Below are positions 22,317-35,824 of a DNA stretch of 51,304 bases, in pieces. Under the pieces are notes generated by a model. The model was given only the letters and a program-made list of their open reading frames with translations. It made no database searches and had not been told where the DNA came from. Source of the stretch: an uncultured Candidatus Saccharibacteria bacterium. GTDB lineage: Bacteria > Patescibacteriota > UBA1384 > DTJR01. The stretch covers positions 1 to 51,304 of the forward strand of contig CAZAOT010000002.1 of NCBI GenBank assembly GCA_964487045.1, in the 5' to 3' direction. A program made the translations under genes and the position numbers. The stretch's first letter is position 1; the number at the start of each line of letters is the position of its first letter.

Positions 22317-23645
22317 ATGAAAAACACACACAAAATAGAATATGTGCCAACTAAGGATTTGATCGCTAGCGATTACAATCCGCGCAAGTGGAACGATAAA
22401 CAACTTTCCGATCTTAAGGAGAGTATCAAAAAATTTGGATTTGTTGACCCAGCAATTATCAACTCGAATCCGAATCGCAAAAATATAATAATTGGCGCAC
22501 ATATGAGAATTATCGCGGCCAAAGAAATTGGAATTGAAAAAGTTCCTGTTGTCTATGTCGATATCGCAGACATCGAAAAAGAAAAAGAGCTCAACTTACG
22601 ATTAAATCGCAACACGGGAGAATTTGATTTTAAGCTTCTAGCAGAGTTTGACGAAAAATTCTTAGCCGATGTTGGATTTGATTCGGAAGAACTGGACGAT
22701 ATCTTTGATATCGAAACAGAGCCAGAACAATTCGATGTAAACCGTGAACTTGAAAAGCTCAAGATTTCAAAGATAGAAATCGAACCGGGAGATACTTACA
22801 TTCTAGGCAAAAACAGGTTGATGTGCGGAAACAGCATGGTAGAAGATGACATTATCAAGCTAATGAATGGCGAGAAAGCCGACATGTGTTTCACTGATGA
22901 GCCATATGTCCTCAATTACCTCCAGGGAAAGCGGCACGGTAAGCCGACAGACGGATTCGGAGCCAAGAAAAACAGGAAATATATCGGAACTGATGAATTG
23001 CCGCCTGATTTCATTGAGCTCTGGACAGCCAACGTCGCCAAGATCCAAAATGAAAACTTCAATATTATTGCCTTCGAGAACTGGAAAAATGTCCGCGAAC
23101 TATGGGGAGCAATGGAAAAATTCTGGACTATCCGCAATATGATAATTTGGAAAATTCCAAATAGAAATCAAGGATATTCCGCCAAGCACAAATTCTTCTC
23201 TAAATATGACATTGCTGTGGTTGGAACAACGCCCGGCAAACAGTTAAATCTTGAGCCCGAAGAAGAGCTACTGCAAAATGAGTATCAGACGGCACTGTTT
23301 GCCACATCGGGCGATGCTCAGTGGGAAGGATATGAAAAAGGCAAGAAGTATTGTCCTACCGATATGATTGAATCGAAAGCTGGCGATGAGAAAAGTACGG
23401 GGCAGGCAATTATTTTTGGGACAAAACCTGTTGAAATCCTCATTCCATACATCAAGGTTCTTACTAAAAGAGATGACCTTATTATCGAACCATTCGGCGG
23501 ATCTGGTAGTACCTTGATTGCTGCCGAGACATTAAAACGCCGATGTTATGTAATGGAAAAATGTCCGATCTATGCCGAGGTGATTAGAAACCGTTGGGAA
23601 AAATTCACCGGAGAAAAAGCAGAGTTGATCAAGAAGGCAAAATGA
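22317..23645 (+). CDS. ParB-like nuclease domain fused to an N4/N6 DNA methyltransferase (phage-type)
   Basis: N-terminal ParB/Srx-like block (DYNPRKW...GAHMRIIAAKEIG), DPPY-like TDEPY motif IV, then FGGSGST motif I (beta-class order). Confidence 0.8.
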   Translation: MKNTHKIEYVPTKDLIASDYNPRKWNDKQLSDLKESIKKFGFVDPAIINSNPNRKNIIIGAHMRIIAAKEIGIEKVPVVYVDIADIEKEKELNLRLNRNTGEFDFKLLAEFDEKFLADVGFDSEELDDIFDIETEPEQFDVNRELEKLKISKIEIEPGDTYILGKNRLMCGNSMVEDDIIKLMNGEKADMCFTDEPYVLNYLQGKRHGKPTDGFGAKKNRKYIGTDELPPDFIELWTANVAKIQNENFNIIAFENWKNVRELWGAMEKFWTIRNMIIWKIPNRNQGYSAKHKFFSKYDIAVVGTTPGKQLNLEPEEELLQNEYQTALFATSGDAQWEGYEKGKKYCPTDMIESKAGDEKSTGQAIIFGTKPVEILIPYIKVLTKRDDLIIEPFGGSGSTLIAAETLKRRCYVMEKCPIYAEVIRNRWEKFTGEKAELIKKAK

Positions 23646-24094
23646 GTGATGTAGATTCGAAGGTTCAGATCAGAACTGCGCAAAATCAAAAAATCCTAAT
23701 TGAGCAATTCATTAAAACGCCAATCATCGAAGTCGCTTGCCAAAAGGTTGGTATCAGTCGAAACACATATTACCGCTGGCGAAGAGCAAGCAAGAAATTT
23801 GCTGCTTCAAGCGACAAGGCTATCGAAGAGGGCTGCCAATTCATAAATGATTTGGCAGAAAGCAAGCTCATTACAGCGATGAAAGATAATAATCTGACCG
23901 CTGTGATGTATTGGCTTAATCACCGCCACAACGCCTACAAGAATAAGCTTGAGGTTTCCGGTGGTCTAGAAATCAAAAAAGATGAATTAACTAAGGAGCA
24001 GGAAGAGAGCATTATGAAGGCATTAGAACTGGCCTCGCTCATAACTTCCAAAGGAGGGAAGAATGAAAAGGAAAAAGAAAAACCAAATAAGTAA
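23642..24094 (+). CDS. Terminase small-subunit-like HTH protein
   Basis: HTH VACQKVGISRNTYYRWRR. Start chosen at the ATGA overlap with the methylase stop. Lies directly upstream of, and overlapping, TerL. Confidence 0.45.
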   Translation: MSDVDSKVQIRTAQNQKILIEQFIKTPIIEVACQKVGISRNTYYRWRRASKKFAASSDKAIEEGCQFINDLAESKLITAMKDNNLTAVMYWLNHRHNAYKNKLEVSGGLEIKKDELTKEQEESIMKALELASLITSKGGKNEKEKEKPNK

Positions 24095-25661
24095 AATCAT
24101 CAAAAACCAAGCAACAAGGGCAGATCTAACCAAAAAAAGCCATTTATGGTTCTTTCACACCTACTTAAGTTCATTCGTGCAGTACAAAATTGCAGAATTT
24201 CACAAAGAAATGTTTGCGATTACTGAGCGAGATGATATCAGTCTCGCAGCGATATGTAGTTTTCGCGGATCAGCCAAATCAACGCTGATGACTCTAAGCT
24301 ATCCAATCTGGGCCGTTGTTGGACGCCCACAAAAGAAGTTTGTGGTATTAATCTCACAAACTGCCGAACAAGCCAAACTTCACTTCAAGAACTTAAAACG
24401 CGAGCTTGAAACAAACGACCTGTTAAAGCGCGATCTCGGTCCGTTTCAAGAAACCGACGAGTGGAACAACTGCAGTTTAGTTATTCCCCGGTACAACGCC
24501 AAAATCATTGCCGTATCCAAGGATCAAAGCTTTCGCGGCATCAGACACGGTCGATATCGCCCGGACTTGATTGTAGCTGACGATGTTGAGAACACAGATT
24601 CGGTAAAAACGCAGGAAGCAAGAGAAAGTACCTTCAACTGGTTAACGAGCGAAGTGTTTCCTCTCGGTGATAAGGGAACCAAGATCATAATAGTCGGTAA
24701 CCTGCTTCACGAAGACAGCTTGTTAAAGCGTCTTGAAAATCTTATTGTTCACGAGAAGCTCTCGGGGATATTCAGAAAATATCCGCTACTTGATGAGTAT
24801 GACAATATTACCTGGCCTGGAAAGTATGAGGATTTGAAGGCAGTCGAAGATGAACGGCTCCGAGTTGGAGACGAAAAAACATGGAATAAAGAATATCTGC
24901 TTCACATTATTGATGACAGGGAGCGCGTCATTACCGAAGATAAGATTCAGTACTACGATAAACTGCCGGAAGACTTGCGGAATCAATCCTATAGTTTCGC
25001 CACCGGAATCGATTTGGCAATTAGTGAAAAAGCGACAGCTGATTTTACCTCGTTGGTTTCAGCAAAGGTTATTGGATCGGGAGATAACTTTGAAGTGTAT
25101 ATCTTGCCAAACCCTGTCAATGCACGCCTGAAATTTACAGAAATTCTAGAGCGTGCCGAGGATATCTGCAAAGTACACGATGGCAGATTCAGCAATAAGT
25201 TTTATGTCGAAGACACGATGCTTCAGGGCTATGTGACTCAACAGTTAAGGGAGCGCAACATCGATGCCGTTGGAGTTAAAATAAGGGGCAAGGATAAACG
25301 AGAACGGCTCGAGCTTGCTGCCAATAAGGTCTACCAGAGCAAGGTGTATTTTCCGCGAAATGGTTGCGAAGAACTAATCAAGCAACTCGTGGATTTTGGA
25401 AGAACAAGACATGACGACATGGCAGATGCATTTAGCATCTTAATTCTTGGGCTAATTGAGAAATTGCCAAGCAATTGTGGCGTGCTGTTTGTTGAGACCA
25501 ATGGTCTAATTAGTGGAACCTTAGGCAATAGACGAGGCGAAGACTGGGGAGATAAAGACGATCGAGAGATGCTCGGCAAGCTAAGACGCCATCCCTGGGG
25601 ACCGGGCAAAAGCTCCTCAATTGAATTCGGAGCAGATGGGCTGATACACAGGAAATATTAG
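24063..25661 (+). CDS. Phage terminase large subunit
   Basis: Walker A-like FRGSAKST, Walker B LIVADDVEN, C-terminal RNaseH-like acidic residues (TGIDLA, HDDMADA). Confidence 0.7.
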   Translation: MKRKKKNQISKIIKNQATRADLTKKSHLWFFHTYLSSFVQYKIAEFHKEMFAITERDDISLAAICSFRGSAKSTLMTLSYPIWAVVGRPQKKFVVLISQTAEQAKLHFKNLKRELETNDLLKRDLGPFQETDEWNNCSLVIPRYNAKIIAVSKDQSFRGIRHGRYRPDLIVADDVENTDSVKTQEARESTFNWLTSEVFPLGDKGTKIIIVGNLLHEDSLLKRLENLIVHEKLSGIFRKYPLLDEYDNITWPGKYEDLKAVEDERLRVGDEKTWNKEYLLHIIDDRERVITEDKIQYYDKLPEDLRNQSYSFATGIDLAISEKATADFTSLVSAKVIGSGDNFEVYILPNPVNARLKFTEILERAEDICKVHDGRFSNKFYVEDTMLQGYVTQQLRERNIDAVGVKIRGKDKRERLELAANKVYQSKVYFPRNGCEELIKQLVDFGRTRHDDMADAFSILILGLIEKLPSNCGVLFVETNGLISGTLGNRRGEDWGDKDDREMLGKLRRHPWGPGKSSSIEFGADGLIHRKY

Positions 25662-25806
25662 GATTGACAAAATGTAAAGTCTACATTACATTATTATCTG
25701 GGCAATCACCAAATCTGTTTGCAGGTGCGACTTCTAGGGCTTGGTCGCGAAAGCGACACGAAGAAGGTGGTTGAATCTTCGTAAATCGAAGATTGAAGGA
25801 GTCAAA

Positions 25807-26061
25807 ATGGCTTTTAGTCAAGAAACTCTCAATCAAGCATGGCGAAGAGCTGGCGGTACGTGCGAATGCACTCGTCAGTGCCCGACTCATTCAGGATATC
25901 GATGCTCCAAGGTCCTAGACCCGAGTAATAAGGTACCTGAGATGAAATGGCACGCGCACCATATAGTATCGCAAGATGCTGGTGGTCCAGATACCCTGGA
26001 TAACTGCGAAATCCTCTGTATCGCGTGTCACAAAAACACCGAAAGTTTTGGCGGCAGATAA
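25807..26061 (+). CDS. HNH endonuclease
   Basis: HAHHIV...DTLDNCEILCIACHKNT; start at ATG 25807 with SD GAAGGAG. Confidence 0.75.
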   Translation: MAFSQETLNQAWRRAGGTCECTRQCPTHSGYRCSKVLDPSNKVPEMKWHAHHIVSQDAGGPDTLDNCEILCIACHKNTESFGGR

Positions 26062-26092
26062 GTCACCTTTACTTTCGGTCTCGTAGGCGATT

Positions 26093-26118
26093 AGGGATCT
26101 TCGGATCCCTTTTCGTTT
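26093..26118 (+). terminator. Intrinsic terminator after the HNH gene
   Basis: agggatc-ttcg-gatccct followed by tttcgttt. Confidence 0.65.
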
Positions 26119-26138
26119 GATGTTATTATAATATCACA

Positions 26139-26804
26139 ATGAAAAATATTAAAGAAATCGATACTAGCGAAACAACCGAAGAACAAATACTGCAAACAAG
26201 GGAGCTTTTGAAAAGCAAATATAACCTCCGAATACCTAAACCCGACTTACTTAAACTAATTAAGCTGATGAAGGAGTTAAGTTGGTGGCTGGAGCGGGCA
26301 TCTAGTGATTCGCCCACTCATGTATCTGAAGAAAGAGCATTTGAGATCCAGAAGATGATCAAGAAGGAATATGGTAAGGATATAACACTAGCTGAGTCCT
26401 TCGATGCGGTACGGGGTTTGATGGTATTAGTTCCTTTCAAAGAAAAGCAAAGATTAGCCGATGAGATGAGAGCGATTATGGTTAAATATCAAAAAGTAAA
26501 ATATGATAAATCACTTTCGGAGAAAACGGCAAAGTTATTTCAGCTTCATTATGAAATAGAGCTTGCTGACAAGGAGTTAAAGGACTTAGTTTATTTTATA
26601 AGTAAAACGGTTTGGTACGAAGAGGGTCTCGACGAATCACCTGAACAATGTGTCGATGATCTTTTGGTTTATATAGATAAGCGCAAGCGCGGAAAACGAA
26701 CAAATTATCTCAAACTTCATGATAAAGTCCGCCAGAGTCTTGATTGGGCGGTGAAAGAAAAATTAAAAATGAAAAAATTTAAACCCCTTTACCAAAAACA
26801 GTAA
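26139..26804 (+). CDS. Hypothetical 221-aa helical protein
   Basis: ORF with coding-like composition; no motif recognised. Confidence 0.4.
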   Translation: MKNIKEIDTSETTEEQILQTRELLKSKYNLRIPKPDLLKLIKLMKELSWWLERASSDSPTHVSEERAFEIQKMIKKEYGKDITLAESFDAVRGLMVLVPFKEKQRLADEMRAIMVKYQKVKYDKSLSEKTAKLFQLHYEIELADKELKDLVYFISKTVWYEEGLDESPEQCVDDLLVYIDKRKRGKRTNYLKLHDKVRQSLDWAVKEKLKMKKFKPLYQKQ

Positions 26805-26821
26805 CCCGTTTCAGTTAGGAC

Positions 26822-26851
26822 TTGACAGCCGTACGCATCAGGACGTATGAT
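26822..26851 (+). promoter_or_regulatory. Near-consensus promoter directly in front of the STAND gene (near-leaderless)
   Basis: TTGACA (26822-26827), 18 nt, TATGAT (26846-26851), with ATG only 9 nt downstream (26861). Confidence 0.55.
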
Positions 26852-26860
26852 AATTTCATT

Positions 26861-29800
26861 ATGAAATATCGTTCTGGAATTGTAATCAAGCAAGCTAGAG
26901 AAAAAATGGGCTGGCAACAGTCAGAATTAGCTCAACGCCTTGGGGGCAAAATACGTCAACAGGCAATAAGCGGATGGGAAAGAGGCATATCGAGACCAAG
27001 GAGAAATATGTTGCCTCTTCTGTCAGAGGAGCTAGCGATTGATTTGGGTGCCCTGAGTGAGGCGTGTGATTACAACAAGGGAGAGGAGATTCCACTACCA
27101 GTAAGACCTTTGCTAACCATTCTACCTTTGCAAGATCTTAATTTTGATCAATTTGAGCAGTTCTGTAATGATTTGATTTCGGGACTATATCCTAACCAGC
27201 AAGTCCACAGGTGGGGTGGACAGGGGCACAAACAAGACGGAATTGATCTATTGCGTAGAGATCAATCAGAAAATGTCGCGGCCTATCAGTGCAAAAAATG
27301 CAAAGAATTTGGGTCTACAGATGTTAGCAACGCAGTCAATGAAGTCAAAATAAAAGCAAAAGAATATGTCATTCTCTTAAGTCGGTTCCCAGCGAGTCCC
27401 GGCTCAAGAAAAGAAATCAGTAAAAATCAAAATTGGGATATTTGGGACGCTGGAGATATTTCGAAAAAGGTAAAGGATCTCTATACCAGCAATCCAGATA
27501 ATGCAATCGCACTTGTTGATAATCACTTCCCCGGCTGGCGAGAAAATTTTCTGGGTGTTTCGACGCCAAGCCCCTGGATATCACATCAGAGATTCTTTGA
27601 GAAATTTGATTCAAATGAAATTTTCAGCCAAAGATGGCATCTTGTAGGCCGGGAGAATATTTTGAAAAGTGCAAAGAAATTTCTCTCTTCGGATGATCGT
27701 TTTATTGCTATTTTGTTGGGTCTAGGAGGAAGCGGCAAAACAAGGCTTTTAAAAGAAATTTCAGAAATCGCAGAGCGAGATCTAAAATATATTGTTCGGT
27801 TGATAGAAACCGACCAGTCTCCGACACTGCAAGACTTCGAGAAATTGCCAAAGGGCGATAAGCTACTTGTATTGATTGATGACGCGCAGCAGAGATCGAA
27901 TATCGCCGGACTAATCAATAATATTTCAAGTATTAGGAAACGAGTTAAATTTATTTTAGCCTTGCATCCTTATGGGAACTCTCAACTTTCAGAAGATCTG
28001 CGGAGAATAGGAATATTCTCCACCGAACTTGAGCAATGGGACATTGGCTCGACCGATTTGAAATTATCCGAAGCAAAAGATCTAGCCCGAGAAATATTGA
28101 GTAGCCAAGCAAATGAAGCTGAAATAGATAGAATAGCTCGTCTAACCCTTGATTGCCCATTGATTACCGTCATGGCATCTGTCCTGTTAAAAAGGGGAGA
28201 AATTAATTCATTTGTTTTTGAAGGTCAGGGTGCGATTCGATCAGTATTGATAGGTTATCAGAACACAATGATTAATTCGCTGAAAGGTAACTTAGATCCT
28301 TCGGTAATTAGGAAATTATTAAATGCCATTGCTGCGGTACAGCCCCTGAATATAGAGGATCAGAGTTTCAGAGATTCTCTTTCAGAAATAACCGGTTTAA
28401 AATTTTATGATATTGCTCCTTATATAAAGCAATTTAAAGAACACGGCATCTTAATAAGCCGACAGCAATCTCTTCGAATCGTTCCGGATCTGCTTGGGGA
28501 TGTCATTTTAGCTGATGCGTGTTTTATGAGTCCAACGAGTTATACAACTACCGGGTATGCCGAGGATTTATACAGCAAGCTCAAAGCGCTTCCACTTCAA
28601 AACTTAATAAAAAATCTAGTCCGCGTTGACTGGCAAATCAACCCAGATAATTCCGAAAGGGCTTTGTCTGAATTTGTTTGGAGTAAAATCGAAAAAGAAT
28701 TTAAACACTCGAGTATCAGTGAGCGTATTCAAATTATCCAATTTGTTAAGAAGATATCATACTTTCATCCCAAAAGAGCGTTAGGGTTAGCTCGTTGGGC
28801 TATCAATAATCCTACTCAAAAGACAAGAGAGGCCGCAGGAGTACTTTCTAAAATATATAATCCTACCTATCAAGACGTTCTGAATGAGATCCCTCCTATA
28901 TTAAAAGGTGTTGCGTATAATCTCGAATTTCTGACGGAGGCGATGAATTTGCTGTGGGAGCTTGCAAAAGTCGACAGCAGAGAGACTAACCCCTTTCCTT
29001 ATCACCCGATACGTATTTTGCAGGATCTCGCATCTTATCAAATCGGTAAACCAGTTACATTTAATAACTTAGTGATCGATGCTTGTGCAAAATGGTTGGA
29101 AGAACCAGAGTTATCAAACCACTCTCCATTCGATATACTTGATCAAATATTAGTCACCGAGAGCTCCGATGATTCTTCTGAGGGGTTCACTATTTCATTC
29201 CGTCCTTATCCCGTTAATATATCGGCCGTGAATGGACTTAGAGAACGCGTTAACGACTTAGCATTTAAGGAACTACTCTCTGATGATTTAGCAAGAGCCT
29301 CGCGAGCGGCGGAAACAATCGGTCACAGCTTAAGGTATCCGCAAGGCCTTTTTGGGCGAGTTGTAAAACGCGAGGAAAGGGAAAATTGGACTCCAGTATT
29401 TGTGACAACTATTAATCGGCTTGAAACGATCATGAAGAACGATCAACTTGATCCGCTGGTTAGAGTTTTGATCTTGGATAACTTAAGCTGGCACATTAAT
29501 TATTCAACGACTTCAACCAGAAAAGCTGCTCATAAAGTAAAAATTGCCTTACCAGATTCCTTGGAGCAGCATGTTGCGCTCGCTATGTATGATGGCTGGG
29601 GTCATTTTTTTAAGAGAATCAATGATTTTGAAAAAGCGGAACAAAGGAAACAGGATTGGCTGGAAAATATTGCCACAGAGCTGATAAAGCAAAAATCAGA
29701 TCAAGGAATAATTAAAATAATAGAGGAAAGACTGAGTAAACAATTTAAAATCAAAGGCCGTTCCGCAAATCCGCTCCCATTCATCTGGACATTAGTGAAA

Positions 29801-30979
29801 GCGAGACCTTCAATTGGAATGGCAATTTGTGAGAGAATTAAAACAGAACATAATTCTGCACTTGTAGAGGTTCTCAGTATTGTTCTCGCTGAACTCATAA
29901 AACACGATGCTAGCAGTACTATCATATTATCAAACACCTTCCTAAAGCTTAAAAATATCAAACTTGCTCGGATGGTTGCACAGGCATTCGGTTGGAATAG
30001 AGGTAATCGCACCAGCTTAGTAAAAAATGAGCTCAAGCTTTTATCAGACTTGTCGATAAGTAATGACCAGTCCGTCAGGATTAACATGATTCGTGCAGCA
30101 CAGATTATTGCTAAAGATGATCGGGTTACAGCTATCAACCTTTTATCGCTCTTGAAATTCCAAGATTCTGCCGCAATTGCAGAGGAGTACTTCTCTGTTT
30201 TTTATAGCCCTGGATTTCCTTCCTGGATATCGCTTCCAAGTAAACAATTAGACCTTATTTGGGATCAGCTAGTTTTGTGTCCATCGTTAGATGATTATCA
30301 CATTTCAAAGTTTTTGTCCGAGGCTTCTGAGGTATGCCCCGGGAAGGTCCTTAAATTGTTAAAAGTGAGAGTAGAAAAAGATGAAAAACAACACAATCGA
30401 GATGAATACAAAGCTCTGCCATACGACTGGCAACACCAACTAAAATTTAGAAACGATCCGAACTTTTTAAGTATATTAAGTGAAATCAGAAATTGGATCG
30501 CACAAAAAACCGACTCGTGGCAGAGAGCGATGATGGGGGCAAAGATTTTTACGGGCGTAGCTATAGAGTTCGACCATAATACGATTAAGATTTTAGAAGA
30601 AGGTATATTTTCGGGCACAAAGGAACAGCTCGATGCGGTAATTTCAATATTAAGAGAGGCTCCCAGAGAGTTTGTTTGGGATCATGTAGATTTTGTTAGA
30701 ACACTCTTGGATCAATCTGCTAAATATGGAGACAGCACGCTAAAAAGGGCTTCAGGGGCATTATATAATTCTGTTATTTCAGGGGTTAGAACCGGGATAC
30801 CTGGACAGCCTTTTGCCGAGGATATAGCACAACGGGATCGATCAATAAAAACACTCGAGTCGCTAAAACCTGGCTCAAGAGAAGCGATTTTTTTCAAATC
30901 ACTGGCAGAGTCAGCTATCCAGAACATCAAATCTCGAGCCGAAGAAGATGAAAAACTACGAGATTGGAGAGATTGGTAA
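26861..30979 (+). CDS. XRE-HTH + Mrr-like PD-(D/E)xK nuclease + STAND/P-loop NTPase + long helical-repeat C-terminus (Avs/NLR-like candidate defence protein)
   Basis: HTH QSELAQRLG...QAISGWERG; nuclease FEQFCNDL...DGIDLL...AAYQCKK; Walker A GLGGSGKTRLL; Walker B LLVLIDDAQ; about 1000 aa of helical repeats. Start moved to ATG 26861 because the track start is the -35 box. Confidence 0.6.
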   Translation: MKYRSGIVIKQAREKMGWQQSELAQRLGGKIRQQAISGWERGISRPRRNMLPLLSEELAIDLGALSEACDYNKGEEIPLPVRPLLTILPLQDLNFDQFEQFCNDLISGLYPNQQVHRWGGQGHKQDGIDLLRRDQSENVAAYQCKKCKEFGSTDVSNAVNEVKIKAKEYVILLSRFPASPGSRKEISKNQNWDIWDAGDISKKVKDLYTSNPDNAIALVDNHFPGWRENFLGVSTPSPWISHQRFFEKFDSNEIFSQRWHLVGRENILKSAKKFLSSDDRFIAILLGLGGSGKTRLLKEISEIAERDLKYIVRLIETDQSPTLQDFEKLPKGDKLLVLIDDAQQRSNIAGLINNISSIRKRVKFILALHPYGNSQLSEDLRRIGIFSTELEQWDIGSTDLKLSEAKDLAREILSSQANEAEIDRIARLTLDCPLITVMASVLLKRGEINSFVFEGQGAIRSVLIGYQNTMINSLKGNLDPSVIRKLLNAIAAVQPLNIEDQSFRDSLSEITGLKFYDIAPYIKQFKEHGILISRQQSLRIVPDLLGDVILADACFMSPTSYTTTGYAEDLYSKLKALPLQNLIKNLVRVDWQINPDNSERALSEFVWSKIEKEFKHSSISERIQIIQFVKKISYFHPKRALGLARWAINNPTQKTREAAGVLSKIYNPTYQDVLNEIPPILKGVAYNLEFLTEAMNLLWELAKVDSRETNPFPYHPIRILQDLASYQIGKPVTFNNLVIDACAKWLEEPELSNHSPFDILDQILVTESSDDSSEGFTISFRPYPVNISAVNGLRERVNDLAFKELLSDDLARASRAAETIGHSLRYPQGLFGRVVKREERENWTPVFVTTINRLETIMKNDQLDPLVRVLILDNLSWHINYSTTSTRKAAHKVKIALPDSLEQHVALAMYDGWGHFFKRINDFEKAEQRKQDWLENIATELIKQKSDQGIIKIIEERLSKQFKIKGRSANPLPFIWTLVKARPSIGMAICERIKTEHNSALVEVLSIVLAELIKHDASSTIILSNTFLKLKNIKLARMVAQAFGWNRGNRTSLVKNELKLLSDLSISNDQSVRINMIRAAQIIAKDDRVTAINLLSLLKFQDSAAIAEEYFSVFYSPGFPSWISLPSKQLDLIWDQLVLCPSLDDYHISKFLSEASEVCPGKVLKLLKVRVEKDEKQHNRDEYKALPYDWQHQLKFRNDPNFLSILSEIRNWIAQKTDSWQRAMMGAKIFTGVAIEFDHNTIKILEEGIFSGTKEQLDAVISILREAPREFVWDHVDFVRTLLDQSAKYGDSTLKRASGALYNSVISGVRTGIPGQPFAEDIAQRDRSIKTLESLKPGSREAIFFKSLAESAIQNIKSRAEEDEKLRDWRDW

Positions 30980-31028
30980 ATTTCTTCACATCTAAGACTG
31001 TGCTTGCAACCAAGAACTCGACTTTTGG

Positions 31029-31610
31029 CTACTTGAGTCCTACTCGATATCTTTCGTTCGAACCATCCTTATCGATCCAAAGTGAGTAATTGCTAGCATC
31101 GTTTGGAATCTCATAAACGAGAACGCCCGATTCGGCAATACTTGGAGAAAGTTCGCGTACTTCTAGGTAATTATCAATACTCATGATGGAATCGTCATAT
31201 GTTTGATATTTTCTGTTCTGATTATCTACCAGCTGCAATGTGTCATTCGGCCTAAATGTAAACTTGCCATCGGTAGTGTTTGTTACCGATAAATCAACGA
31301 TTACGAACTTGGCTCTATCCTTGGCTGATTTGGCTCCACCGAATTCGCTGCTAATAGTGCTCTTTTCCTCGGATTTGTTAACCTTAATCTTCATCTTGGT
31401 TATATCAACTTCTTCGCCAAGTTTATTGTCGACTATTTTCTTTTCTTTGTTCAACTCTGCCGACTCTCCTATGGATCCTAAATTGCTAAATGCGCTTTTA
31501 ATCTTGTTAACCCGATACGCATCACCTACAAAGAAACCGATCAAAAAAATCACGACTCCTGCTCCGATTGCAATCGCGAGCTGCTTTTTGGAAAGCGTTT
31601 GCTTTGCCAT
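31029..31610 (-). CDS. Membrane-anchored DUF4352-like (Ig-like beta-sandwich) protein
   Basis: N-terminal TM helix, then a pattern ending VLVYEIP...YSLWI that is typical of DUF4352 (from memory). Confidence 0.45.
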   Translation of the reverse strand: MAKQTLSKKQLAIAIGAGVVIFLIGFFVGDAYRVNKIKSAFSNLGSIGESAELNKEKKIVDNKLGEEVDITKMKIKVNKSEEKSTISSEFGGAKSAKDRAKFVIVDLSVTNTTDGKFTFRPNDTLQLVDNQNRKYQTYDDSIMSIDNYLEVRELSPSIAESGVLVYEIPNDASNYSLWIDKDGSNERYRVGLK

Positions 31611-31628
31611 ATTACCCCCATATATTAT

Positions 31629-32765
31629 TTATACTTTGCTATTTAATGACTTTACTGTTTTCTCGATCAATGCAATAAATCTGCTTATCGTATCGTCTGT
31701 GAGTAGTTCTAAATCCTTAATTGCTTTTCTTTTCTCATCGTAGCTGGGTAGTGTACGATAGCAATCAACATATTCGCTGATGAATGGCTTCAATTTCGGA
31801 ATATTTTCAAACGGCCACTCGCAATATCCAAACTGGAGCTCTTCTACATCCTGCTCGTTCGAGGGAGCTTTGAAAAATAAGAATGAGAATTTTGTTGTGT
31901 AGCCGGGTACGGCTAAGTCTTTAGGATATTTGGTCATTAGTGAAAAGCCGTTTTTACGCCAGACAACTTCTACACTTTCTTCTGACTCAAATTTTTTCAG
32001 AAGTGCTTCGGCAATTCTCTTGCCATTTTGTGATAATAATTTTATAAAGTCCTCTTTGGCAATCGGTGTTCGATCATAGCTGTCGTTAGACTTGGATTTC
32101 TCAGAGTAGGTAATATTTTTTCGTGGAGGGTTGGCTAGACTGGGTATCAGAAAATGCTCTTGAGCATCACCCACTAACTGCATTTCAACTACGTAAAAGT
32201 CGATTTCCTGACCCGTTCGATCATTCAGATAGTTCGCGATATCTTTAAGCTCTTGATTGGCCTGATCGACAACAATCAGAAGAGTAAAACTGCCGAGACG
32301 AAGCCGCTTTTCCAGGCCTTCTTTGAATTCAGATTCTGAGAAATTCTCTTCTCCTATCTTTTCTTTCATATATTCAGACAACGAACCTTGAAAATTGACC
32401 TTACGCTGGAGTAGGAATTTCCGAAAACAACTACTTTCAATCTCTTCATAAGATTTATTCCAAAGATAGGCGGCATAACCGAGAATTTGGCCGACAACAG
32501 TCCTCTTTACTTCAGGATTCTTCTCAAGCTTTGTTTCGATCAAAGCAATGTGGCCTTGAGGACTGACCGCCAAAACATCCAGCGCACCATTTTGAAGGCT
32601 TACTTCCTTTCCTATTGTGACGAATTTGGAATCATACCCTATTTCATCAAGCGGAAGAGTGTTAACATCGTTTGTTAATAGATCTTGAAGTTGAGCTTCA
32701 TCGTTATAGTATCGCTTTTCAACCGGAACCCATTTCTTATCCGGATTTAAATGTAATATTTTCAT
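31629..32765 (-). CDS. Hypothetical protein with an N-terminal NucS/DUF91-like PD-(D/E)xK nuclease signature
   Basis: GALDVLAV...GHIALIETKL...VGQILGYAAY; start placed at ATG 32765 (SD GAGG) rather than TTG 32798. Confidence 0.45.
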   Translation of the reverse strand: MKILHLNPDKKWVPVEKRYYNDEAQLQDLLTNDVNTLPLDEIGYDSKFVTIGKEVSLQNGALDVLAVSPQGHIALIETKLEKNPEVKRTVVGQILGYAAYLWNKSYEEIESSCFRKFLLQRKVNFQGSLSEYMKEKIGEENFSESEFKEGLEKRLRLGSFTLLIVVDQANQELKDIANYLNDRTGQEIDFYVVEMQLVGDAQEHFLIPSLANPPRKNITYSEKSKSNDSYDRTPIAKEDFIKLLSQNGKRIAEALLKKFESEESVEVVWRKNGFSLMTKYPKDLAVPGYTTKFSFLFFKAPSNEQDVEELQFGYCEWPFENIPKLKPFISEYVDCYRTLPSYDEKRKAIKDLELLTDDTISRFIALIEKTVKSLNSKV

Positions 32766-33058
32766 TTCTTTGCCTCGATTAACCGGAAGCGGATACAAAA
32801 AGCCCGCCGCCAGCGATAGCTTTTTACGGCTACCTGCAATCCTTTCGGACTACAACCGATCAAGGTGCTCTGACGACGAGCCCATTATCCTTGATCGGTT
32901 TTTATGCCATGCCTTAGAAAAATCTAAAGTTTAGGCAATGTATTCAAAATTTACAATTAACAACCTTAATGTTAGCAGATTTACTCCTGTTGTAAAGACA
33001 TTTCGGGTGATTTTTTGCTTGACTTAGCCCTGTTATTCGGGCTTCCTTTCCCTTACAA

Positions 33059-34432
33059 ATGAGCCAAGAGACCAAATTAACGAATACTGCACCGTTTCAG
33101 CTACCACAAGAAGTAAATGGGGTGTTTGCCGGGCCAATTCAGCCGCCAGATCCGGAAACGAGATACTGCCTTTACGCTCGCAAATCAAGTGAAGATGACG
33201 AGAGGCAAGCACTTTCGATCGGTTCACAAATTAACGAGATGACCAGGCAAGCAGAAACGCAAAGTTTACAGGTCGTTGAAGTTCGGCAAGAAAGTCATTC
33301 GGCAAAATATTCTGGACAAAGACCCATATTTCAACAGCTGATTGGCGATATCCAAAACGGATTATTTAACGGAATTTTAAGTTGGGCGCCCGACCGATTG
33401 TCGAGAAACGCTGGTGACTTGGGATCTATTGTTGATTTGATGGATCGAGGATTATTGAAAGAAATTCGGACTCATGGGCAAGTTTTTACAAATTCACCTA
33501 ATGATAAGTTCCTGCTGATGATTTTATGTTCACAAGCAAAGCTAGAGAATGATAATCGAGGAATCAATATCAAAAGAGGGATGAGGGCAAAATGCGAAAT
33601 GGGCTTCCGACCCAATATGGCTCCAATTGGATACCTGAATGATAAGTACGGCAATAAAGGTCAGCGAAAGGTTTATCCAGATCCTGATAGAGCACCGATC
33701 ATCAAAGAAGCTTTTGAGAAAGTCGGCTATCACGGTTGTTCTGGTCGTCAGGTCTATCTTTGGCTTAAAGACGAGGTTGCGTTTGTAACTCGAAGCGGAA
33801 AGCCGATGACTTTAAGCACAATTTATCGAACTTTGAGTAATCCCTATTATACCGGAGTATTCGAAGTGCCTGAGGGTAGCGGCAATTGGTATAAAGGGGC
33901 ATATGAACCGATCGTTTCGAAAGAGCTATTTAAAATTGTACAAGAAAAATTAACCGTAGTGCCAAAGAGCATGCCCGGAACCAAACAATTTGATTTTACC
34001 AAGTTATTAAAATGCGGAGAGTGCGGTTCTGGAATCACGGCACAGGAAAAAATTAAGCATTGGGGAAAAAGATATGTTTATTACCACTGTACGAAGTTGA
34101 GAAATTTTGAATGTCCTGAGCGATATACAAACGAAGAAAAATTAGTACAAGAATTTATAAGAATTCTATCGAAGCTGACAATCGATCAGATCAAATCCAA
34201 AAGAGAGATTTATGGCAAATTTGAGCAATTTTGTAAATTCAGATCGGACGTATTGGATTTCGAGCTAAAACCGAACCAAGCAAATTATATTGATCAGACA
34301 CGAATTAACATCGAAAAATTTGTTGAACATATTTTCGAAAAAGGTAATCGCGAAGAGAAGCGGTCGCTAATCGGTTGTCTAAGCGCAAAACTAATTCTGA
34401 AAAATCGAGAAGTTTGTTTGTTAGAACTCTAA
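33059..34432 (+). CDS. Large serine recombinase (Rec2), paralogous to Rec3
   Basis: YCLYARKSSEDDERQALSIGSQ, APDRLSRN, Zn ribbon CGECGSGITA...YYHCTK; blockwise similar to 36986-38590. Confidence 0.85.
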   Translation: MSQETKLTNTAPFQLPQEVNGVFAGPIQPPDPETRYCLYARKSSEDDERQALSIGSQINEMTRQAETQSLQVVEVRQESHSAKYSGQRPIFQQLIGDIQNGLFNGILSWAPDRLSRNAGDLGSIVDLMDRGLLKEIRTHGQVFTNSPNDKFLLMILCSQAKLENDNRGINIKRGMRAKCEMGFRPNMAPIGYLNDKYGNKGQRKVYPDPDRAPIIKEAFEKVGYHGCSGRQVYLWLKDEVAFVTRSGKPMTLSTIYRTLSNPYYTGVFEVPEGSGNWYKGAYEPIVSKELFKIVQEKLTVVPKSMPGTKQFDFTKLLKCGECGSGITAQEKIKHWGKRYVYYHCTKLRNFECPERYTNEEKLVQEFIRILSKLTIDQIKSKREIYGKFEQFCKFRSDVLDFELKPNQANYIDQTRINIEKFVEHIFEKGNREEKRSLIGCLSAKLILKNREVCLLEL

Positions 34433-34437
34433 GCAAA

Positions 34438-35175
34438 CTATTTTCTCTTTTTTTGCCACTTTACTGAAGTAAGAATTTTTCCGTAAAGGTCGTCATTAAT
34501 ATTTATTGGCATCTGTGATAATTCTTCCCCTGTAGGGTTATTCTTTTGAAAAACGACAAAGGGCAGATCGTTTATCACAGCTATCGGAGTCTGTTCTCGC
34601 CCCTCACCCATTATAAGTACCGCTGCAGCGGCTATTCCATCAGCAATATTTGCTCTTGTGCAAATCATATTTCTGCCGAATAAATCTTTTTGGCCGATAT
34701 AATTATTCAGTGCTTTAAATCCAGTGTGTGCAATTGAAATGCCAGTCGTTCCCCAGCGTAGCGGTGTCGTTTTGCTATCCGTTATGATAACTCCCAAGTG
34801 ACTGATACTATGCTGTTTTTTTAGATAACTACGAATTTTATTAGCAGATTTTTGTGGGTCACTTGGCCACAAAATATATTTTCCATTTCCATTCGACTCA
34901 TCAATTCCTGCAGTTGGGATAAGAGTATTATTTTTGATAGTAAGAAGCGCTCCGAATTTTCCTCTTCCTCTGAGAAACATATCAGCTTCTTTATATATAA
35001 GCTTTTCCTTGTCAGTATCTACTACATCAACTACGTTTCCTTCGCAAATCGAGACAATTTTAGAAGTAATGGCAACAATCGAATTCTCTGGTAATTTTCG
35101 GATGTATCTTGATAATAAATTTTCAATTGGTTGAGCTCCGGTTATTTTTAATGTTCTGATTGTTCTAATCTTCAT
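34438..35175 (-). CDS. CofE/F420-0:gamma-glutamyl ligase-family protein
   Basis: ITSKIVSICEGN, PTAGIDESNG and GVIITDSKTTPLRWGTTG motifs. An alternative start at 35214 exists; ATG 35175 has the SD-like GGAAAGGG. Confidence 0.6.
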   Translation of the reverse strand: MKIRTIRTLKITGAQPIENLLSRYIRKLPENSIVAITSKIVSICEGNVVDVVDTDKEKLIYKEADMFLRGRGKFGALLTIKNNTLIPTAGIDESNGNGKYILWPSDPQKSANKIRSYLKKQHSISHLGVIITDSKTTPLRWGTTGISIAHTGFKALNNYIGQKDLFGRNMICTRANIADGIAAAAVLIMGEGREQTPIAVINDLPFVVFQKNNPTGEELSQMPININDDLYGKILTSVKWQKKRK

Positions 35176-35824
35176 TTTTACCCTTTCCGAGCCACTTGAC
35201 GCCCAAGTAGACAAAAGGTGTCTCTATTATCGACATAGCACACTTCAACCCCCAATAGGGTAAAACTAACCCCATGATAAAGACGATGTTCTGATTAAAT
35301 GGCTTGTCCAGCGCATAGAACGCTAATATCATAAATATTGCAGTGTCAACAAACTGACTAATGAAGTTGGAAAGATTAGTCCTAAGCCATAGATTTTGCT
35401 TCCCCATTTTTTGTCTGAGCCGGTAAAAAATCGCAACATCCAGGATTTCTGCAATAGCAAAGGCAAATAAGCTGGCAAGAGAGAATCTGATCGAAATCTT
35501 GAATACTGACTCATAAGCTGCCTCTGTCGGTGAGAACCTTGATGTCGGAGGCAGAGCCACCGCTAACACGGAAAATAGGATTAACAGAATAATTACTATG
35601 ATGCCAGATCTAACTAAGCTTTGCGCCCTGTCTTTGCCTCTAGCTTCAACGATTATGTCATTAACTGCATAAGTTATCGGGAACAGAAAAATAGCCACAC
35701 TTCCGCTTAACAAGAAGTTGCCAATATGCAGGAGATTGAATGTTTTACCTCCCATCAATTCAGACGCCACAACGCAGAACATGTAGATAGCCGCTATCAA
35801 ATCAAACTTTCTTATTTTCAACAT
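35165..35824 (-). CDS. yhhQ: Queuosine-precursor transporter (YhhQ/COG1738, VUT family)
   Basis: 6 TM helices, FPITYAVNDIIVEARG and C-terminal ETPFVY patterns. Confidence 0.7.
   Translation of the reverse strand: MLKIRKFDLIAAIYMFCVVASELMGGKTFNLLHIGNFLLSGSVAIFLFPITYAVNDIIVEARGKDRAQSLVRSGIIVIILLILFSVLAVALPPTSRFSPTEAAYESVFKISIRFSLASLFAFAIAEILDVAIFYRLRQKMGKQNLWLRTNLSNFISQFVDTAIFMILAFYALDKPFNQNIVFIMGLVLPYWGLKCAMSIIETPFVYLGVKWLGKGKNED

What the first reader, a model, noticed from the sequence alone, without database searches (positions are those of the whole stretch)
26822..30979. HTH + Mrr-like nuclease + STAND NTPase + about 1000-aa helical sensor: Avs/NLR-like defence candidate with an unusual DNA-binding head
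The domain order read from the translation is: XRE-type HTH; a PD-(D/E)xK module of the Mrr type (DGIDLL...YQCKK); a P-loop (GLGGSGKTRLL with LLVLIDDAQ); then about 1000 aa of helical repeats. Nuclease effector + STAND ATPase + repeat sensor is the established Avs/bacterial NLR architecture. The added N-terminal HTH, and placement immediately downstream of a TerS/TerL/HNH module, are unusual, given that terminase is a known Avs trigger. The gene has its own near-consensus promoter with the ATG 9 nt after the -10 box.
Basis: partly seen in the sequence, partly recalled or inferred. Interest (0 to 1): 0.7.

Follow-up and report, generated by a model that had tools for sequence, protein, structure and literature searches.

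The report
Self-regulating NLR-like nuclease defence gene
This is an intact 1372-residue bacterial relative of NLR immune receptors: a DNA-cutting domain, an ATP-driven switch and a large helical sensor, plus a small DNA-binding head that most likely shuts off the gene's own promoter, carried as cargo in a small mobile element that also holds phage DNA-packaging (terminase) genes.

Summary
One gene encodes XRE-type HTH, Mrr-type PD-(D/E)xK nuclease, STAND NTPase and a long helical C-terminus. Two corrections: the true start is ATG 26861, because the TTG at 26822 is the -35 box; and the solenoid is about 815 aa and HEAT/ARM-like, not about 1000 aa. The NTPase passes Pfam's cut-off for nSTAND_NTPase5. 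PADLOC gives no Avs or bNACHT match, so this works like Avs4 or bNACHT25 but belongs to neither.

The new result concerns the HTH. In 21 of 34 HTH-bearing relatives across phyla, an exact palindrome ACG(C/T)A-N5-T(G/A)CGT overlaps a -10 box at a fixed -26/-27 from the start codon. The count is 28 of 34 with one mismatch. It occurs only 5 times elsewhere in 906 kb and is absent from HTH-less relatives. This points to autorepression of a leaderless gene, as with restriction-modification controller proteins. The window's own site is degenerate.

The terminase adjacency is incidental. The gene sits in the variable cargo slot of a ParB-methylase/TerS/TerL/serine-recombinase element whose relatives carry restriction-modification systems, reverse transcriptases and similar genes there. 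No defence phenotype has been tested. Verdict: new variant of a known kind.

The parts
26822..26827 (+). -35 hexamer TTGACA. The mechanical ORF wrongly begins here.
   Evidence: A -35-like TTGA is conserved at the same place in relatives.
26832..26847 (+). Operator-like imperfect palindrome TACGCA-TCAG-GACGTA. It is a degenerate copy of the family operator (T/C)ACG(C/T)A-N5-T(G/A)CGTA, one nucleotide shorter and with one mismatch.
   Evidence: The canonical site is exact in 21 of 34 relatives at -26/-27. The window's site is found only when the spacer may be 4-6 nt and one mismatch is allowed.
26846..26851 (+). -10 hexamer TATGAT, overlapping the right half-site. The ATG lies 9 nt downstream with no Shine-Dalgarno sequence, so the mRNA is probably leaderless or nearly so.
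   Evidence: The leaderless start is inferred; the transcription start site was not mapped.
26861..30979 (+). Coding sequence, 1372 aa plus stop.
26861..27070 (+). XRE-type HTH (aa 1-70), five helices, with recognition helix RQQAISGWERG. A flexible linker follows at aa 71-88.
   Evidence: Pfam HTH_3 at 4e-12. PDB profile hits to P22 C2, 434 repressor, HipB, C.AhdI and C.BclI. AF2 pLDDT above 90, with the linker below 50.
27125..27565 (+). Mrr-type PD-(D/E)xK nuclease (aa 89-235). Catalytic residues: E99 (27155), D129 (27245), Q143 (27287), K145 (27293).
   Evidence: The AF2 model shows the alpha-beta-beta-beta-alpha-beta core.
27623..28060 (+). STAND nucleotide-binding domain (aa 255-400). Walker A is G287-T294 with K293 at 27737. 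Walker B is D340-D341 at 27878. The sensor-1-like position 369 is His here and Arg in all 38 aligned relatives.
   Evidence: Pfam nSTAND_NTPase5 at 35.5 bits against a cut-off of 34..
28061..28528 (+). Helical domain (aa 401-475, with the GxP-like motif D431-C-P433-L) and winged-helix domain (aa 480-556, with the near-invariant motif R539-IVP-DLLGD).
   Evidence: AF2 secondary structure. Foldseek hits to STAND proteins. Conservation.
28529..30976 (+). HEAT/ARM-like alpha-solenoid, the presumed sensor (aa 557-1372), with one beta-hairpin insertion at about aa 767-784.
   Evidence: AF2 pLDDT 91. Foldseek hits to CAND1, SF3B1 and karyopherins. AlphaRep and AP-2 beta profile hits. This region alone finds 1283 representative clusters in which it is nearly always C-terminal in proteins of about 1270-1400 aa.
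22317..34432 (.). Context: the mobile element carrying the gene. In order: ParB_N-DNA methylase 22317-23645; TerS 23594-24094; TerL 24063-25661; HNH 25741-26061; hypothetical 221 aa 26139-26804; the target; DUF4352 31029-31610 (-); hypothetical 389 aa 31629-32798 (-); LOOT RNA 32815-32937 (-); large serine recombinase 33059-34432. Host genes flank it: HAD hydrolase 21264-21890 and CofE 34438-35214.

Best explanation
The gene encodes a single-polypeptide, NLR-like (STAND) anti-invader nuclease of the nSTAND5 clade with a built-in transcriptional controller.

Proposed steps:
1. (Inferred from comparative genomics.) The N-terminal XRE HTH binds a palindromic operator that overlaps the -10 box and spacer of the gene's own promoter. 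This represses a leaderless transcript and holds a potentially self-toxic protein at a low, buffered level. It also makes the gene a portable, self-contained cassette.
2. (Inferred by analogy with Avs and bNACHT proteins.) In the resting state the STAND module is closed and the Mrr nuclease is inactive.
3. (Inferred; trigger unknown.) An invader-derived ligand, most likely a protein, is bound by the HEAT-like solenoid.
4. (Inferred.) Nucleotide exchange and oligomerisation bring the Mrr domains together and switch on DNA cleavage. This destroys invader DNA, host DNA or both (abortive infection).

Shown here: the domain anatomy, the intact catalytic and NTP-binding residues, the conserved operator, and the defence-cargo location. 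Not shown: DNA binding, repression, nuclease activity, the trigger, or protection against phage.
For: Architecture and residues:
- HTH_3 and nSTAND_NTPase5 pass Pfam cut-offs.
- Mrr_cat is found in 25 of 26 family members, with E99, D129 and Q143-x-K145 conserved.
- Walker A and B are intact.
- The AF2 models are confident, with pLDDT 89 and 91.
- The N-terminal half best matches EfAvs5, MalT, NOD2, SAMD9, Avs3 and Apaf-1. The C-terminal half matches HEAT solenoids.

The N-terminal module behaves as an effector. Relatives with the same NTPase and sensor carry PNP_UDP_1, EAD10 or other N-termini in its place.

Autoregulation:
- Exact ACG[CT]A-N(4-6)-T[GA]CGT occurs 27 times in the -70..-15 windows of 21 of 34 HTH-bearing loci. 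It occurs 5 times elsewhere in 906 kb.
- The proximal site sits at -26/-27 from the start codon and overlaps TA(T/C)GAT. A second site lies about 31 nt upstream in seven loci.
- ACG...CGTA columns are invariant in otherwise unconserved upstream DNA from 24 loci, including Actinomycetota, a Bdellovibrionales genome and the window.
- The exact palindrome is absent upstream of HTH-less relatives.
- The recognition helix is conserved where the operator is canonical and differs where it is not.

Defence context:
- The closest homolog sits with a type IIG restriction-modification enzyme and an HKD-SNF2 helicase.
- Sister elements carry type I and type IIG restriction-modification systems, reverse transcriptases and a Ppl/AriA-like ATPase in the same slot.
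- The Rhizobium etli plasmid copy lies among AAA-ATPase, helicase and HEPN genes.
- Near other homologs are TIR and bpMoxR genes. Neighbours of the genome loci include pAgo, PD-Lambda-1, Cas1, PDC-S02, PDC-S39 and integrases.
- No conserved partner gene was found, so this is a single-gene system.
Against: - There is no experimental evidence for any member of this family.
- PADLOC has no model for it.
- Defence association among the 30 genome loci is modest and heterogeneous. Many neighbours are housekeeping genes, and my gene calling there was crude.
- The window's own operator is degenerate, with a spacer 1 nt shorter and one mismatch. A position weight matrix built from the canonical sites does not recover it, and the repeat finder sees no inverted repeat there. 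Autoregulation may therefore be weak in this copy.
- The window protein has His at the sensor-1-like position where all 38 aligned relatives have Arg. It also has Gln for the conserved His after Walker B.
- The palindrome could in principle act as an RNA hairpin if transcription starts further upstream.
Confidence: 0.6

Rival explanations
1. It is an NTP-dependent, type IV-like restriction enzyme that senses DNA directly, for example modified or foreign DNA. The HTH and the Mrr domain would act as the DNA readers, and the STAND/HEAT part would act as a regulator rather than a protein sensor.
For: Mrr_cat is the catalytic domain of the modification-dependent enzyme Mrr (own knowledge). The Xanthobacter homolog is annotated 'restriction endonuclease'. 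Two DNA-binding or DNA-cutting modules sit at the N-terminus. The 2026 STAND survey leaves open that some STANDs sense non-protein ligands.
Against: The NTPase is a STAND switch, not a translocase or helicase. The only conserved DNA element found is at the gene's own promoter. HTH-less and Mrr-less relatives keep the same NTPase and sensor, so the conserved recognition unit is the solenoid.
Confidence: 0.12
2. It is an Avs1-3-like terminase sensor. The solenoid would recognise large terminase subunits, which would make its position next to TerL functionally meaningful, for example by guarding against competing phages or satellites.
For: Avs1-3 are known to bind large terminase (citing Gao et al. 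2022). The gene lies next to TerS and TerL in the window and in L002.
Against: The relatives' loci held then (33 of the 35 genome loci, plus metagenome and plasmid loci) have no terminase nearby. TerS and TerL are the backbone of an element family whose cargo slot holds unrelated defence genes. The sensor fold does not match Avs3, and the top 50 hits are all HEAT/ARM proteins. PADLOC gives no Avs hit. Stable co-residence with the element's own TerL argues that this TerL is not a trigger.
Confidence: 0.06
3. It is a STAND-class transcription regulator in the manner of MalT or AfsR. Its main output would be gene regulation through the HTH, with the Mrr-like domain serving as a DNA-binding or vestigial module.
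For: HTH plus STAND plus a repeat sensor is the layout of known STAND regulators. MalT is the second-best structural match. The operator evidence shows that the HTH probably does regulate transcription.
Against: The nuclease catalytic residues are invariant or nearly so across the family. The operator is found essentially only at the gene's own promoter within about 906 kb of flanks. The N-terminal module is replaced in relatives by PNP_UDP_1 or EAD10, which are conflict-system effectors. The gene lies in mobile, defence-rich contexts.
Confidence: 0.08
4. It is an addiction or stabilisation module for the mobile element. The nuclease would act as a toxin, with the fused antitoxin-like HTH repressing its synthesis, and the element's loss would be punished.
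For: The HTH resembles the antitoxins HipB and MqsA. The gene has an autorepressed promoter, sits in mobile elements and plasmids, and encodes a toxic nuclease.
Against: It is a single polypeptide with no separable labile antitoxin. About 1100 aa of conserved NTPase and sensor would be superfluous. Many copies lie in chromosomal, non-mobile surroundings.
Confidence: 0.06

Closest known systems
Avs4 and Avs3 (antiviral STAND; Gao et al. 2020 and 2022) and the Avs families surveyed in bioRxiv 10.64898/2026.01.04.697583
   Same: A single large protein with an N-terminal PD-(D/E)xK nuclease effector (Mrr-like in Avs4, own knowledge), a central STAND NTPase and a long C-terminal helical sensor. It is found in defence islands and mobile elements. 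Avs3 (8dgc) and Avs5 (9jap, 9nc9) are among the structural matches to the N-terminal half.
   Different: PADLOC Avs models do not match. The NTPase falls in Pfam nSTAND_NTPase5. The sensor is HEAT/ARM-like with no match to Avs sensors. It has an extra N-terminal XRE HTH with a cognate operator. The trigger is unknown. I could not establish whether it belongs to one of the 589 clades of the 2026 survey, because the accessions were not found in the truncated supplement.
bNACHT25 and other bacterial NACHT proteins (Kibby et al., bioRxiv 10.1101/2022.07.19.500537)
   Same: Mrr-like REase effector fused to a STAND NTPase. HEAT repeats and HTH are listed among the domains fused to bacterial NACHT modules, and anti-phage activity has been shown for several members.
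   Different: The window protein has no NACHT hit below E = 1, so it belongs to a different STAND clade. No tested member has this architecture, to my knowledge.
Pfam PF25199, nSTAND_NTPase5 (novel STAND clades from the Aravind laboratory's conflict-system surveys; nSTAND1 and nSTAND2 are defined in PMC8195603)
   Same: The NTPase passes the curated cut-off here and in nearly all relatives. Those surveys predict REase, PNPase and EAD effectors and helical-repeat sensors for such systems.
   Different: This is a domain-level, purely computational family. I found no description of this full architecture, its operator or its element context in the searchable library.
Controller (C) proteins of type II restriction-modification systems (C.PvuII, C.AhdI, C.Esp1396I; PMC2632904, PMC2175313, PMC2275141)
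   Same: An XRE-type HTH that regulates expression of a toxic nuclease in a mobile gene unit. Palindromic operators lie at a fixed short distance from the start codon, often as two sites, and the transcripts are leaderless. C.AhdI and C.BclI are among the PDB profile hits of the HTH.
   Different: C proteins are separate proteins of about 80 aa, co-transcribed with the REase, that act as activator then repressor from promoters lacking a clear -10 box. Here the HTH is fused to the nuclease. The operator overlaps a recognisable -10 box, which suggests simple repression. No methylase partner is needed.
STAND transcription regulators (MalT, AfsR/SARP-type)
   Same: STAND NTPase plus a helical repeat sensor plus a DNA-binding HTH in one protein. 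MalT (8bob) is a top structural match.
   Different: In those proteins the HTH is the sole output, and it is of LuxR or SARP type. They have no nuclease, they regulate regulons rather than only their own promoter, and they are not mobile defence cargo.

Membership tests
STAND NTPase superfamily | P-loop NTPase with Walker A GxxxxGK[ST] and Walker B hhhhDD | tested here: met
   G287-LGGSGK293-T and LLVLID340-D341. G290, G292, K293 and D341 are invariant in 39 sequences.
STAND NTPase superfamily | Nucleotide-binding domain followed by a helical domain (GxP-type motif) and a winged-helix domain, then a large repeat or sensor region | tested here: met
   AF2 model, pLDDT 89: helical bundle at aa 402-475 with D431-C-P433-L, and a winged helix at aa 480-556 with a beta-hairpin. 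Best Foldseek matches are EfAvs5, MalT, NOD2, SAMD9, Apaf-1, Avs3 and a TPR-STAND (6mfv), though generic AAA+ proteins (RuvB, Cdc6/Orc1) score similarly.
STAND NTPase superfamily | Sensor-1 arginine after strand beta4 | tested here: inconclusive
   Arg in all 38 aligned relatives, but His369 in the window protein. The functional effect is unknown.
Pfam nSTAND_NTPase5 (PF25199) | Score at or above the curated gathering cut-off (34 bits) | tested here: met
   35.5 bits, aa 266-368. Relatives score up to 43.7 bits.
Avs1-5 (PADLOC / Gao et al.) | Match to a family HMM | tested here: not met
   PADLOC-DB v2 gives only HTH_VI, RmrA and PDC-M16A fragments, 13.6-19.9 bits, over the HTH or the P-loop. 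DefenseFinder was not available.
Avs1-4 | C-terminal TPR-like sensor that binds phage large terminase or portal | tested here: inconclusive
   The fold is a helical solenoid, but the matches are HEAT/ARM proteins, and no Avs chain appears among the top 50. Ligand binding cannot be tested with these tools.
Avs / bacterial NLR (functional class) | Confers anti-phage defence; a phage trigger activates the effector | not testable with these tools
   Only contextual support is available.
bNACHT | NACHT-clade NTPase (Pfam PF05729) | tested here: not met
   No NACHT hit at E <= 1 for the window protein. Only weak sub-threshold NACHT hits appear in a few relatives.
Mrr_cat (PF04471) PD-(D/E)xK nucleases | Profile match | tested here: inconclusive
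   The window domain alone scores 17.2 bits, E 0.0058, against a cut-off of 21, covering profile positions 3-111 of 115. 25 of 26 relatives match, best 2.7e-13. A family profile finds no PDB chain.
Mrr_cat (PF04471) PD-(D/E)xK nucleases | Catalytic E...D...(E/Q)xK on an alpha-beta-beta-beta-alpha-beta core | tested here: met
   E99 lies in helix 95-109, D129 just before strand 130-134, and Q143-C-K145 in strand 137-145. These residues are invariant or nearly so.
Restriction-modification controller (C) proteins | XRE HTH with palindromic operator(s) at a fixed short distance upstream of its own leaderless start codon | tested here: met
   Met for the family: 21 of 34 loci exact and 28 of 34 with one mismatch or fewer, at -26/-27. 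The window's site is a degenerate variant. The leaderless start is inferred, not mapped.
Restriction-modification controller (C) proteins | Small stand-alone protein co-transcribed with a separate REase and paired with a methylase | tested here: not met
   The HTH is fused to the nuclease-STAND protein. No cognate methylase is conserved next to the homologs.

The most novel reading that the evidence does not exclude
The receptor is also its own transcription factor, and the two roles are coupled. At rest it sits on its operator as a repressor. When the HEAT sensor is triggered and the protein oligomerises, it leaves the operator. Infection would then derepress synthesis of more receptor-nuclease, giving feed-forward amplification. 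The operator-promoter-leaderless-gene unit would travel between phyla as a self-installing cassette, in the way that C proteins install restriction enzymes. This would be an NLR-like immune receptor with built-in transcriptional feedback. I found no description of one in the literature searched.
Probability: 0.25. Interest if true: 0.75.

Novelty: new variant of a known kind. Interest (0 to 1): 0.58.

Why it matters
Nuclease-armed STAND/NLR proteins are an established class of bacterial immunity. How cells keep such dangerous single-gene systems silent, and how they survive transfer into new hosts, is little studied.

This family offers a directly testable answer. It is large: 1283 representative clusters, mostly in Actinomycetota and here in a Patescibacteria-like genome. 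A controller-type HTH is fused to the receptor, and its operator is recognisable by sequence across phyla. The operator, the HTH and the leaderless promoter are short, defined parts, suitable for gel-shift (EMSA), reporter and 5'-RACE experiments.

The sensor is a confidently modelled HEAT solenoid with an unknown ligand, so it is a new candidate for trigger screens.

The work also shows that the terminase neighbours belong to a previously unremarked family of minimal elements (ParB-methylase/TerS/TerL/serine recombinase) whose cargo slot collects defence genes. That family may be worth a study of its own.

Tried and rejected
- PADLOC, NCBIfam and PHROGs on the whole protein gave only HTH and P-loop fragments.
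- Whole-protein Pfam did not show Mrr_cat. This was resolved by scanning the isolated domain across the family.
- A profile of the Mrr region found nothing in the PDB.
- The first three family scans used a wrong frame.
- The first genome scan with the 39-sequence alignment failed for lack of conserved stretches. It worked with the 13 closest sequences.
- The gene has no relatives in IMG/VR viral contigs or in 50,697 phage records. The island's TerL has no close relative in IMG/VR either.
- I tried to place the family in the 2026 STAND survey through accession look-ups in its supplement. Nothing was found, and the file is truncated.
- I searched for papers on nSTAND5, on Avs proteins with HTH, and on autoregulated antiviral STANDs. 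Nothing relevant turned up.
- The inverted-repeat finder sees no repeat at the window's promoter. A fixed-spacing position weight matrix built from relatives does not recover the window's site. I therefore do not claim a canonical operator in the window itself.
- I considered the palindrome as an RNA hairpin and ranked that reading lower. Its sequence is invariant, not just its pairing. Two sites have C-A mismatches. It also lies between -35-like and -10-like boxes.
- I considered decay of the window copy and rejected it. The protein deviates at 6 of 108 highly conserved columns, within the family range of 0-22.

Full report
**The object.** A single ORF runs from 26822 to 30979 on the + strand. 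The mechanical start, TTG 26822, is the first base of a TTGACA hexamer. It is followed by an 18-nt spacer, TATGAT (26846-26851), 9 nt without a Shine-Dalgarno sequence, and ATG 26861. This is the best sigma-70-like match in the 5.7 kb scanned, at 11 of 12 positions. The overall number of promoter-like hits equals the shuffled expectation, so the scan alone proves little.

Homologs begin at the equivalent Met. Several have in-frame stops 3-8 codons upstream. The coding sequence is therefore 26861-30979, 1372 aa.

**Family.** A word-indexed search returned 39 relatives. Of these, 37 are full length (E = 0 to about 1e-112, 49-26% identity, 94-100% coverage for nearly all). Their precomputed Pfam domains are HTH_3, Mrr_cat and nSTAND_NTPase5. 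The sensor region alone, searched exhaustively, finds 1283 representative clusters at E <= 1e-3 and 484 at E <= 1e-30. In nearly all of them it occupies the C-terminus of a protein of about 1270-1400 aa.

A genome scan found 35 loci. Most are in Actinomycetota (Kutzneria, Amycolatopsis, Arthrobacter, Nocardia, Streptomyces, Geodermatophilus and others). There is also a Bdellovibrionales genome, Xanthomonas albilineans and an Acidisarcina. Plasmid copies exist in Rhizobium etli, Ralstonia solanacearum and Xanthobacter. No relative was found in phage collections.

**Domains.**
- Pfam gives HTH_3 at aa 9-63 (4e-12) and nSTAND_NTPase5 at aa 266-368 (35.5 bits against a cut-off of 34).
- The Mrr assignment was missed on the whole protein. 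The isolated region aa 84-238 matches Mrr_cat weakly in the window (17.2 bits). It matches in 25 of 26 relatives, best 2.7e-13.
- E99, D129 and Q143-x-K145 are invariant or nearly so. They sit on the expected alpha-beta-beta-beta-alpha-beta elements of a confident AF2 model, pLDDT 89.
- Walker A (K293) and Walker B (D340-D341) are intact.
- A helical domain with a GxP-like DCPL motif and a winged helix follow, as in STAND proteins.
- The best structural matches of the N-terminal half are EfAvs5, MalT, archaeal PF01637 ATPases, NOD2, SAMD9, a TPR-STAND, Avs3 and Apaf-1. Generic AAA+ proteins score comparably.
- The C-terminal 772 residues are modelled at pLDDT 91 as an alpha-solenoid. It matches CAND1, SF3B1 and karyopherins, so it is HEAT/ARM-like. 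It does not match Avs sensors.
- PADLOC has no model for the protein.

The protein has the same layout as the nuclease-armed Avs and bNACHT proteins, but it fails the membership tests for both families.

**Is the N-terminus an effector?** Relatives that share the NTPase and the sensor have other N-termini: PNP_UDP_1 phosphorylase (P0038), EAD10 (P0040), and unknown or short heads. Module swapping of this kind is what the conflict-system surveys describe for effectors.

**The HTH and a conserved operator.** I aligned the starts of all HTH-bearing loci and saw the same palindrome immediately upstream.

- The exact pattern ACG[CT]A-N(4-6)-T[GA]CGT occurs 27 times in the -70..-15 windows of 21 of 34 loci. 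It occurs 5 times in the remaining 906 kb or so.
- With one mismatch allowed, 28 of 34 loci have it.
- The proximal site starts at -26/-27 from the start codon. Its right half merges into a -10-like TA(T/C)GAT, and only 6-10 nt separate that box from the start codon. Seven loci have a second site about 31 nt upstream.
- A MAFFT alignment of 24 upstream regions from different phyla shows invariant ACG...CGTA...T columns in otherwise unconserved DNA.
- HTH-less relatives lack the exact palindrome upstream of the gene.
- The recognition helix (V/I)(G/R)QQA(V/I)SxWExG is conserved where the operator is canonical. It differs (K or S before QQ) in the proteobacterial and other loci that lack it. The Rhizobium locus has two variant palindromes, ACWCA-N5-TGWGT.

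The simplest reading is that the HTH represses its own, probably leaderless, promoter. The same layout is known for the controller proteins of restriction-modification systems: an XRE HTH, palindromic operators at a fixed distance, often two sites, and leaderless mRNA. C.AhdI and C.BclI are among the HTH's PDB profile hits.

One caveat applies. The window's own site, TACGCA-TCAG-GACGTA at 26832-26847, has a spacer one nucleotide shorter and one mismatch. A position weight matrix built from the canonical sites does not recover it, and the repeat finder sees no inverted repeat there. Regulation in this particular copy may be weaker or altered.

**Surroundings.** The gene lies in a segment of about 12 kb between a HAD hydrolase and CofE. 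The segment encodes a ParB_N-DNA methylase, TerS, TerL, an HNH protein, a 221-aa protein, the target, DUF4352, a 389-aa protein preceded by a LOOT RNA, and a large serine recombinase.

The closest homolog (L002, 49% identity) sits in the same backbone, which is 65-83% identical. Its slot also holds a type IIG restriction-modification enzyme (1.4e-241) and an HKD-SNF2 helicase.

A metagenome scan with TerL found about 45 loci sharing the ParB-methylase/TerS/TerL module. In several a serine-recombinase gene follows TerL directly, with no cargo. In others up to about 9 kb lies between TerL and the recombinase. Annotated cargo includes:
- a complete type I restriction-modification system plus a Ppl/AriA-like ATPase (L054);
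- a type IIG restriction-modification enzyme plus a reverse transcriptase (L068);
- an SNc+LTD protein (L080);
- a reverse transcriptase (L084).

The terminase genes are therefore the element's backbone, and the target occupies its defence-cargo slot. The other relatives' loci held then (33 of the 35 genome loci, plus metagenome and plasmid loci) have no terminase nearby. Stable co-residence with the element's TerL argues against that protein being the trigger.

Elsewhere the gene is solitary, with no conserved partner. It lies next to integrases, transposases and scattered defence genes: TIR and bpMoxR; AAA-ATPase, helicase and HEPN genes; and pAgo, PD-Lambda-1, Cas1, PDC-S02 and PDC-S39. That last survey used crude ORF calling and shows only modest enrichment.

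**Host.** The window's LysRS is closest to unnamed metagenome proteins. Among named ones it is closest to Candidatus Berkelbacteria (60%), candidate division WS2 and Saccharimonadales. The genome is probably a member of Patescibacteria (CPR). The gene's G+C content, about 40%, matches its surroundings.

**Integrity of this copy.** The protein deviates at 6 of 108 highly conserved columns, within the family range of 0-22. Two deviations are in the NTPase: H343Q after Walker B, and R369H at the sensor-1-like position, where every one of the 38 aligned relatives has Arg. The consequence is unknown.

**Mechanism and rivals.** The best-supported model is an autorepressed, single-gene, NLR-like nuclease. 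A ligand bound by the HEAT solenoid drives STAND oligomerisation and Mrr activation. Every step after the anatomy rests on analogy with Avs and bNACHT systems.

Four rivals were weighed and are listed in the rival-explanations section:
1. A type IV-like enzyme that senses DNA.
2. A terminase sensor.
3. A MalT-like regulator.
4. An addiction module.

**Novelty.** The class (REase-STAND-repeat) is known, and the NTPase clade is catalogued in Pfam. What appears new is the fused controller-type HTH with a phylum-spanning operator, the HEAT sensor family with an unknown ligand, and the element context. I found no paper in the searchable library describing them. I rate it a new variant of a known kind, with interest 0.58.

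Noticed in passing
window 22317-34432; related loci L002, L045-L093: A family of small integrative elements with the backbone ParB_N-DNA methylase / TerS / TerL / large serine recombinase and no capsid or portal genes. In several relatives (L059, L060, L063, L075, L076, L078) a serine-recombinase gene follows TerL directly, with no cargo between them. Others carry 1-9 kb of cargo between TerL and the recombinase, largely defence genes: type I and type IIG restriction-modification systems, reverse transcriptases, a Ppl/AriA-like ATPase, an HKD-SNF2 helicase and the STAND gene. This looks like a phage-satellite-like element with a defence hotspot, in low-GC, probably Patescibacteria genomes. No close relative was found in IMG/VR.
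   Followed up: partly
window 32815-32937 (-); L002 17042-17164 (-); L068 17925-18059 (-); L080 12616-12743 (-); L084 5086-5200 (-): LOOT RNA (Rfam RF03000; 94, 90, 56.5, 63 and 69 bits against a gathering score of 46.4). In all five elements it lies on the strand opposite TerL, directly upstream of a cargo gene. The downstream gene differs: a PDC-S11-like 389-aa protein and its 66%-identical 397-aa homolog, a type IIG restriction-modification enzyme, an SNc+LTD protein, and a 217-aa ORF. It looks like a shared 5' leader for cargo operons rather than a partner of one protein family.
   Followed up: partly
window 31629-32798 (-): The 389-aa protein downstream of LOOT has no Pfam or PHROG hit but matches the PADLOC candidate PDC-S11 (5e-18). 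It is conserved at 66% in L002. DUF4352 (31029-31610, phrog_806) follows it.
   Followed up: partly
window 36986-38590 (-) and 37009-37084 (+): A second large serine recombinase (534 aa). Its 3' end overlaps tRNA-Ala(CGC) on the opposite strand, which suggests another element integrated at a tRNA gene. Nearby is a 1022-aa ORF (39318-42386) with no Pfam hit, and G+C dips to 0.30 at 43-44 kb.
   Followed up: no
window 45236-46705 and the whole window: The LysRS is closest, among named proteins, to Candidatus Berkelbacteria (60%), candidate division WS2 and Saccharimonadales. The window probably comes from an uncultivated Patescibacteria (CPR) genome.
   Followed up: partly
window 27887-27889 (Q343) and 27965-27967 (H369): The window protein alone has His at the sensor-1-like position where all 38 aligned relatives have Arg. 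It also has Gln for the conserved His after Walker B. This may alter NTP hydrolysis.
   Followed up: partly
L084 5311-6294 (-) and L068 13392-14447 (+): Reverse transcriptases (RVT_1; PADLOC RT/DRT-like) occur in the cargo slots of two sister elements. In L084 the reverse transcriptase gene is immediately upstream of the LOOT RNA on the same strand.
   Followed up: no
L002 4119-4160; L005 and L006 upstream of the called gene: Public gene calls for P0002 and P0013 start too far downstream and cut off part or all of the HTH. The extended ORFs begin right after the operator and -10 box. HTH-less annotations in this family should be checked against the DNA.
   Followed up: yes
window 26139-26804 (+): The 221-aa protein just upstream of the target has no Pfam, PHROG or PADLOC hit. 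It recurs at 63% identity directly after TerL in L045, so it is a semi-conserved element gene of unknown role.
   Followed up: partly
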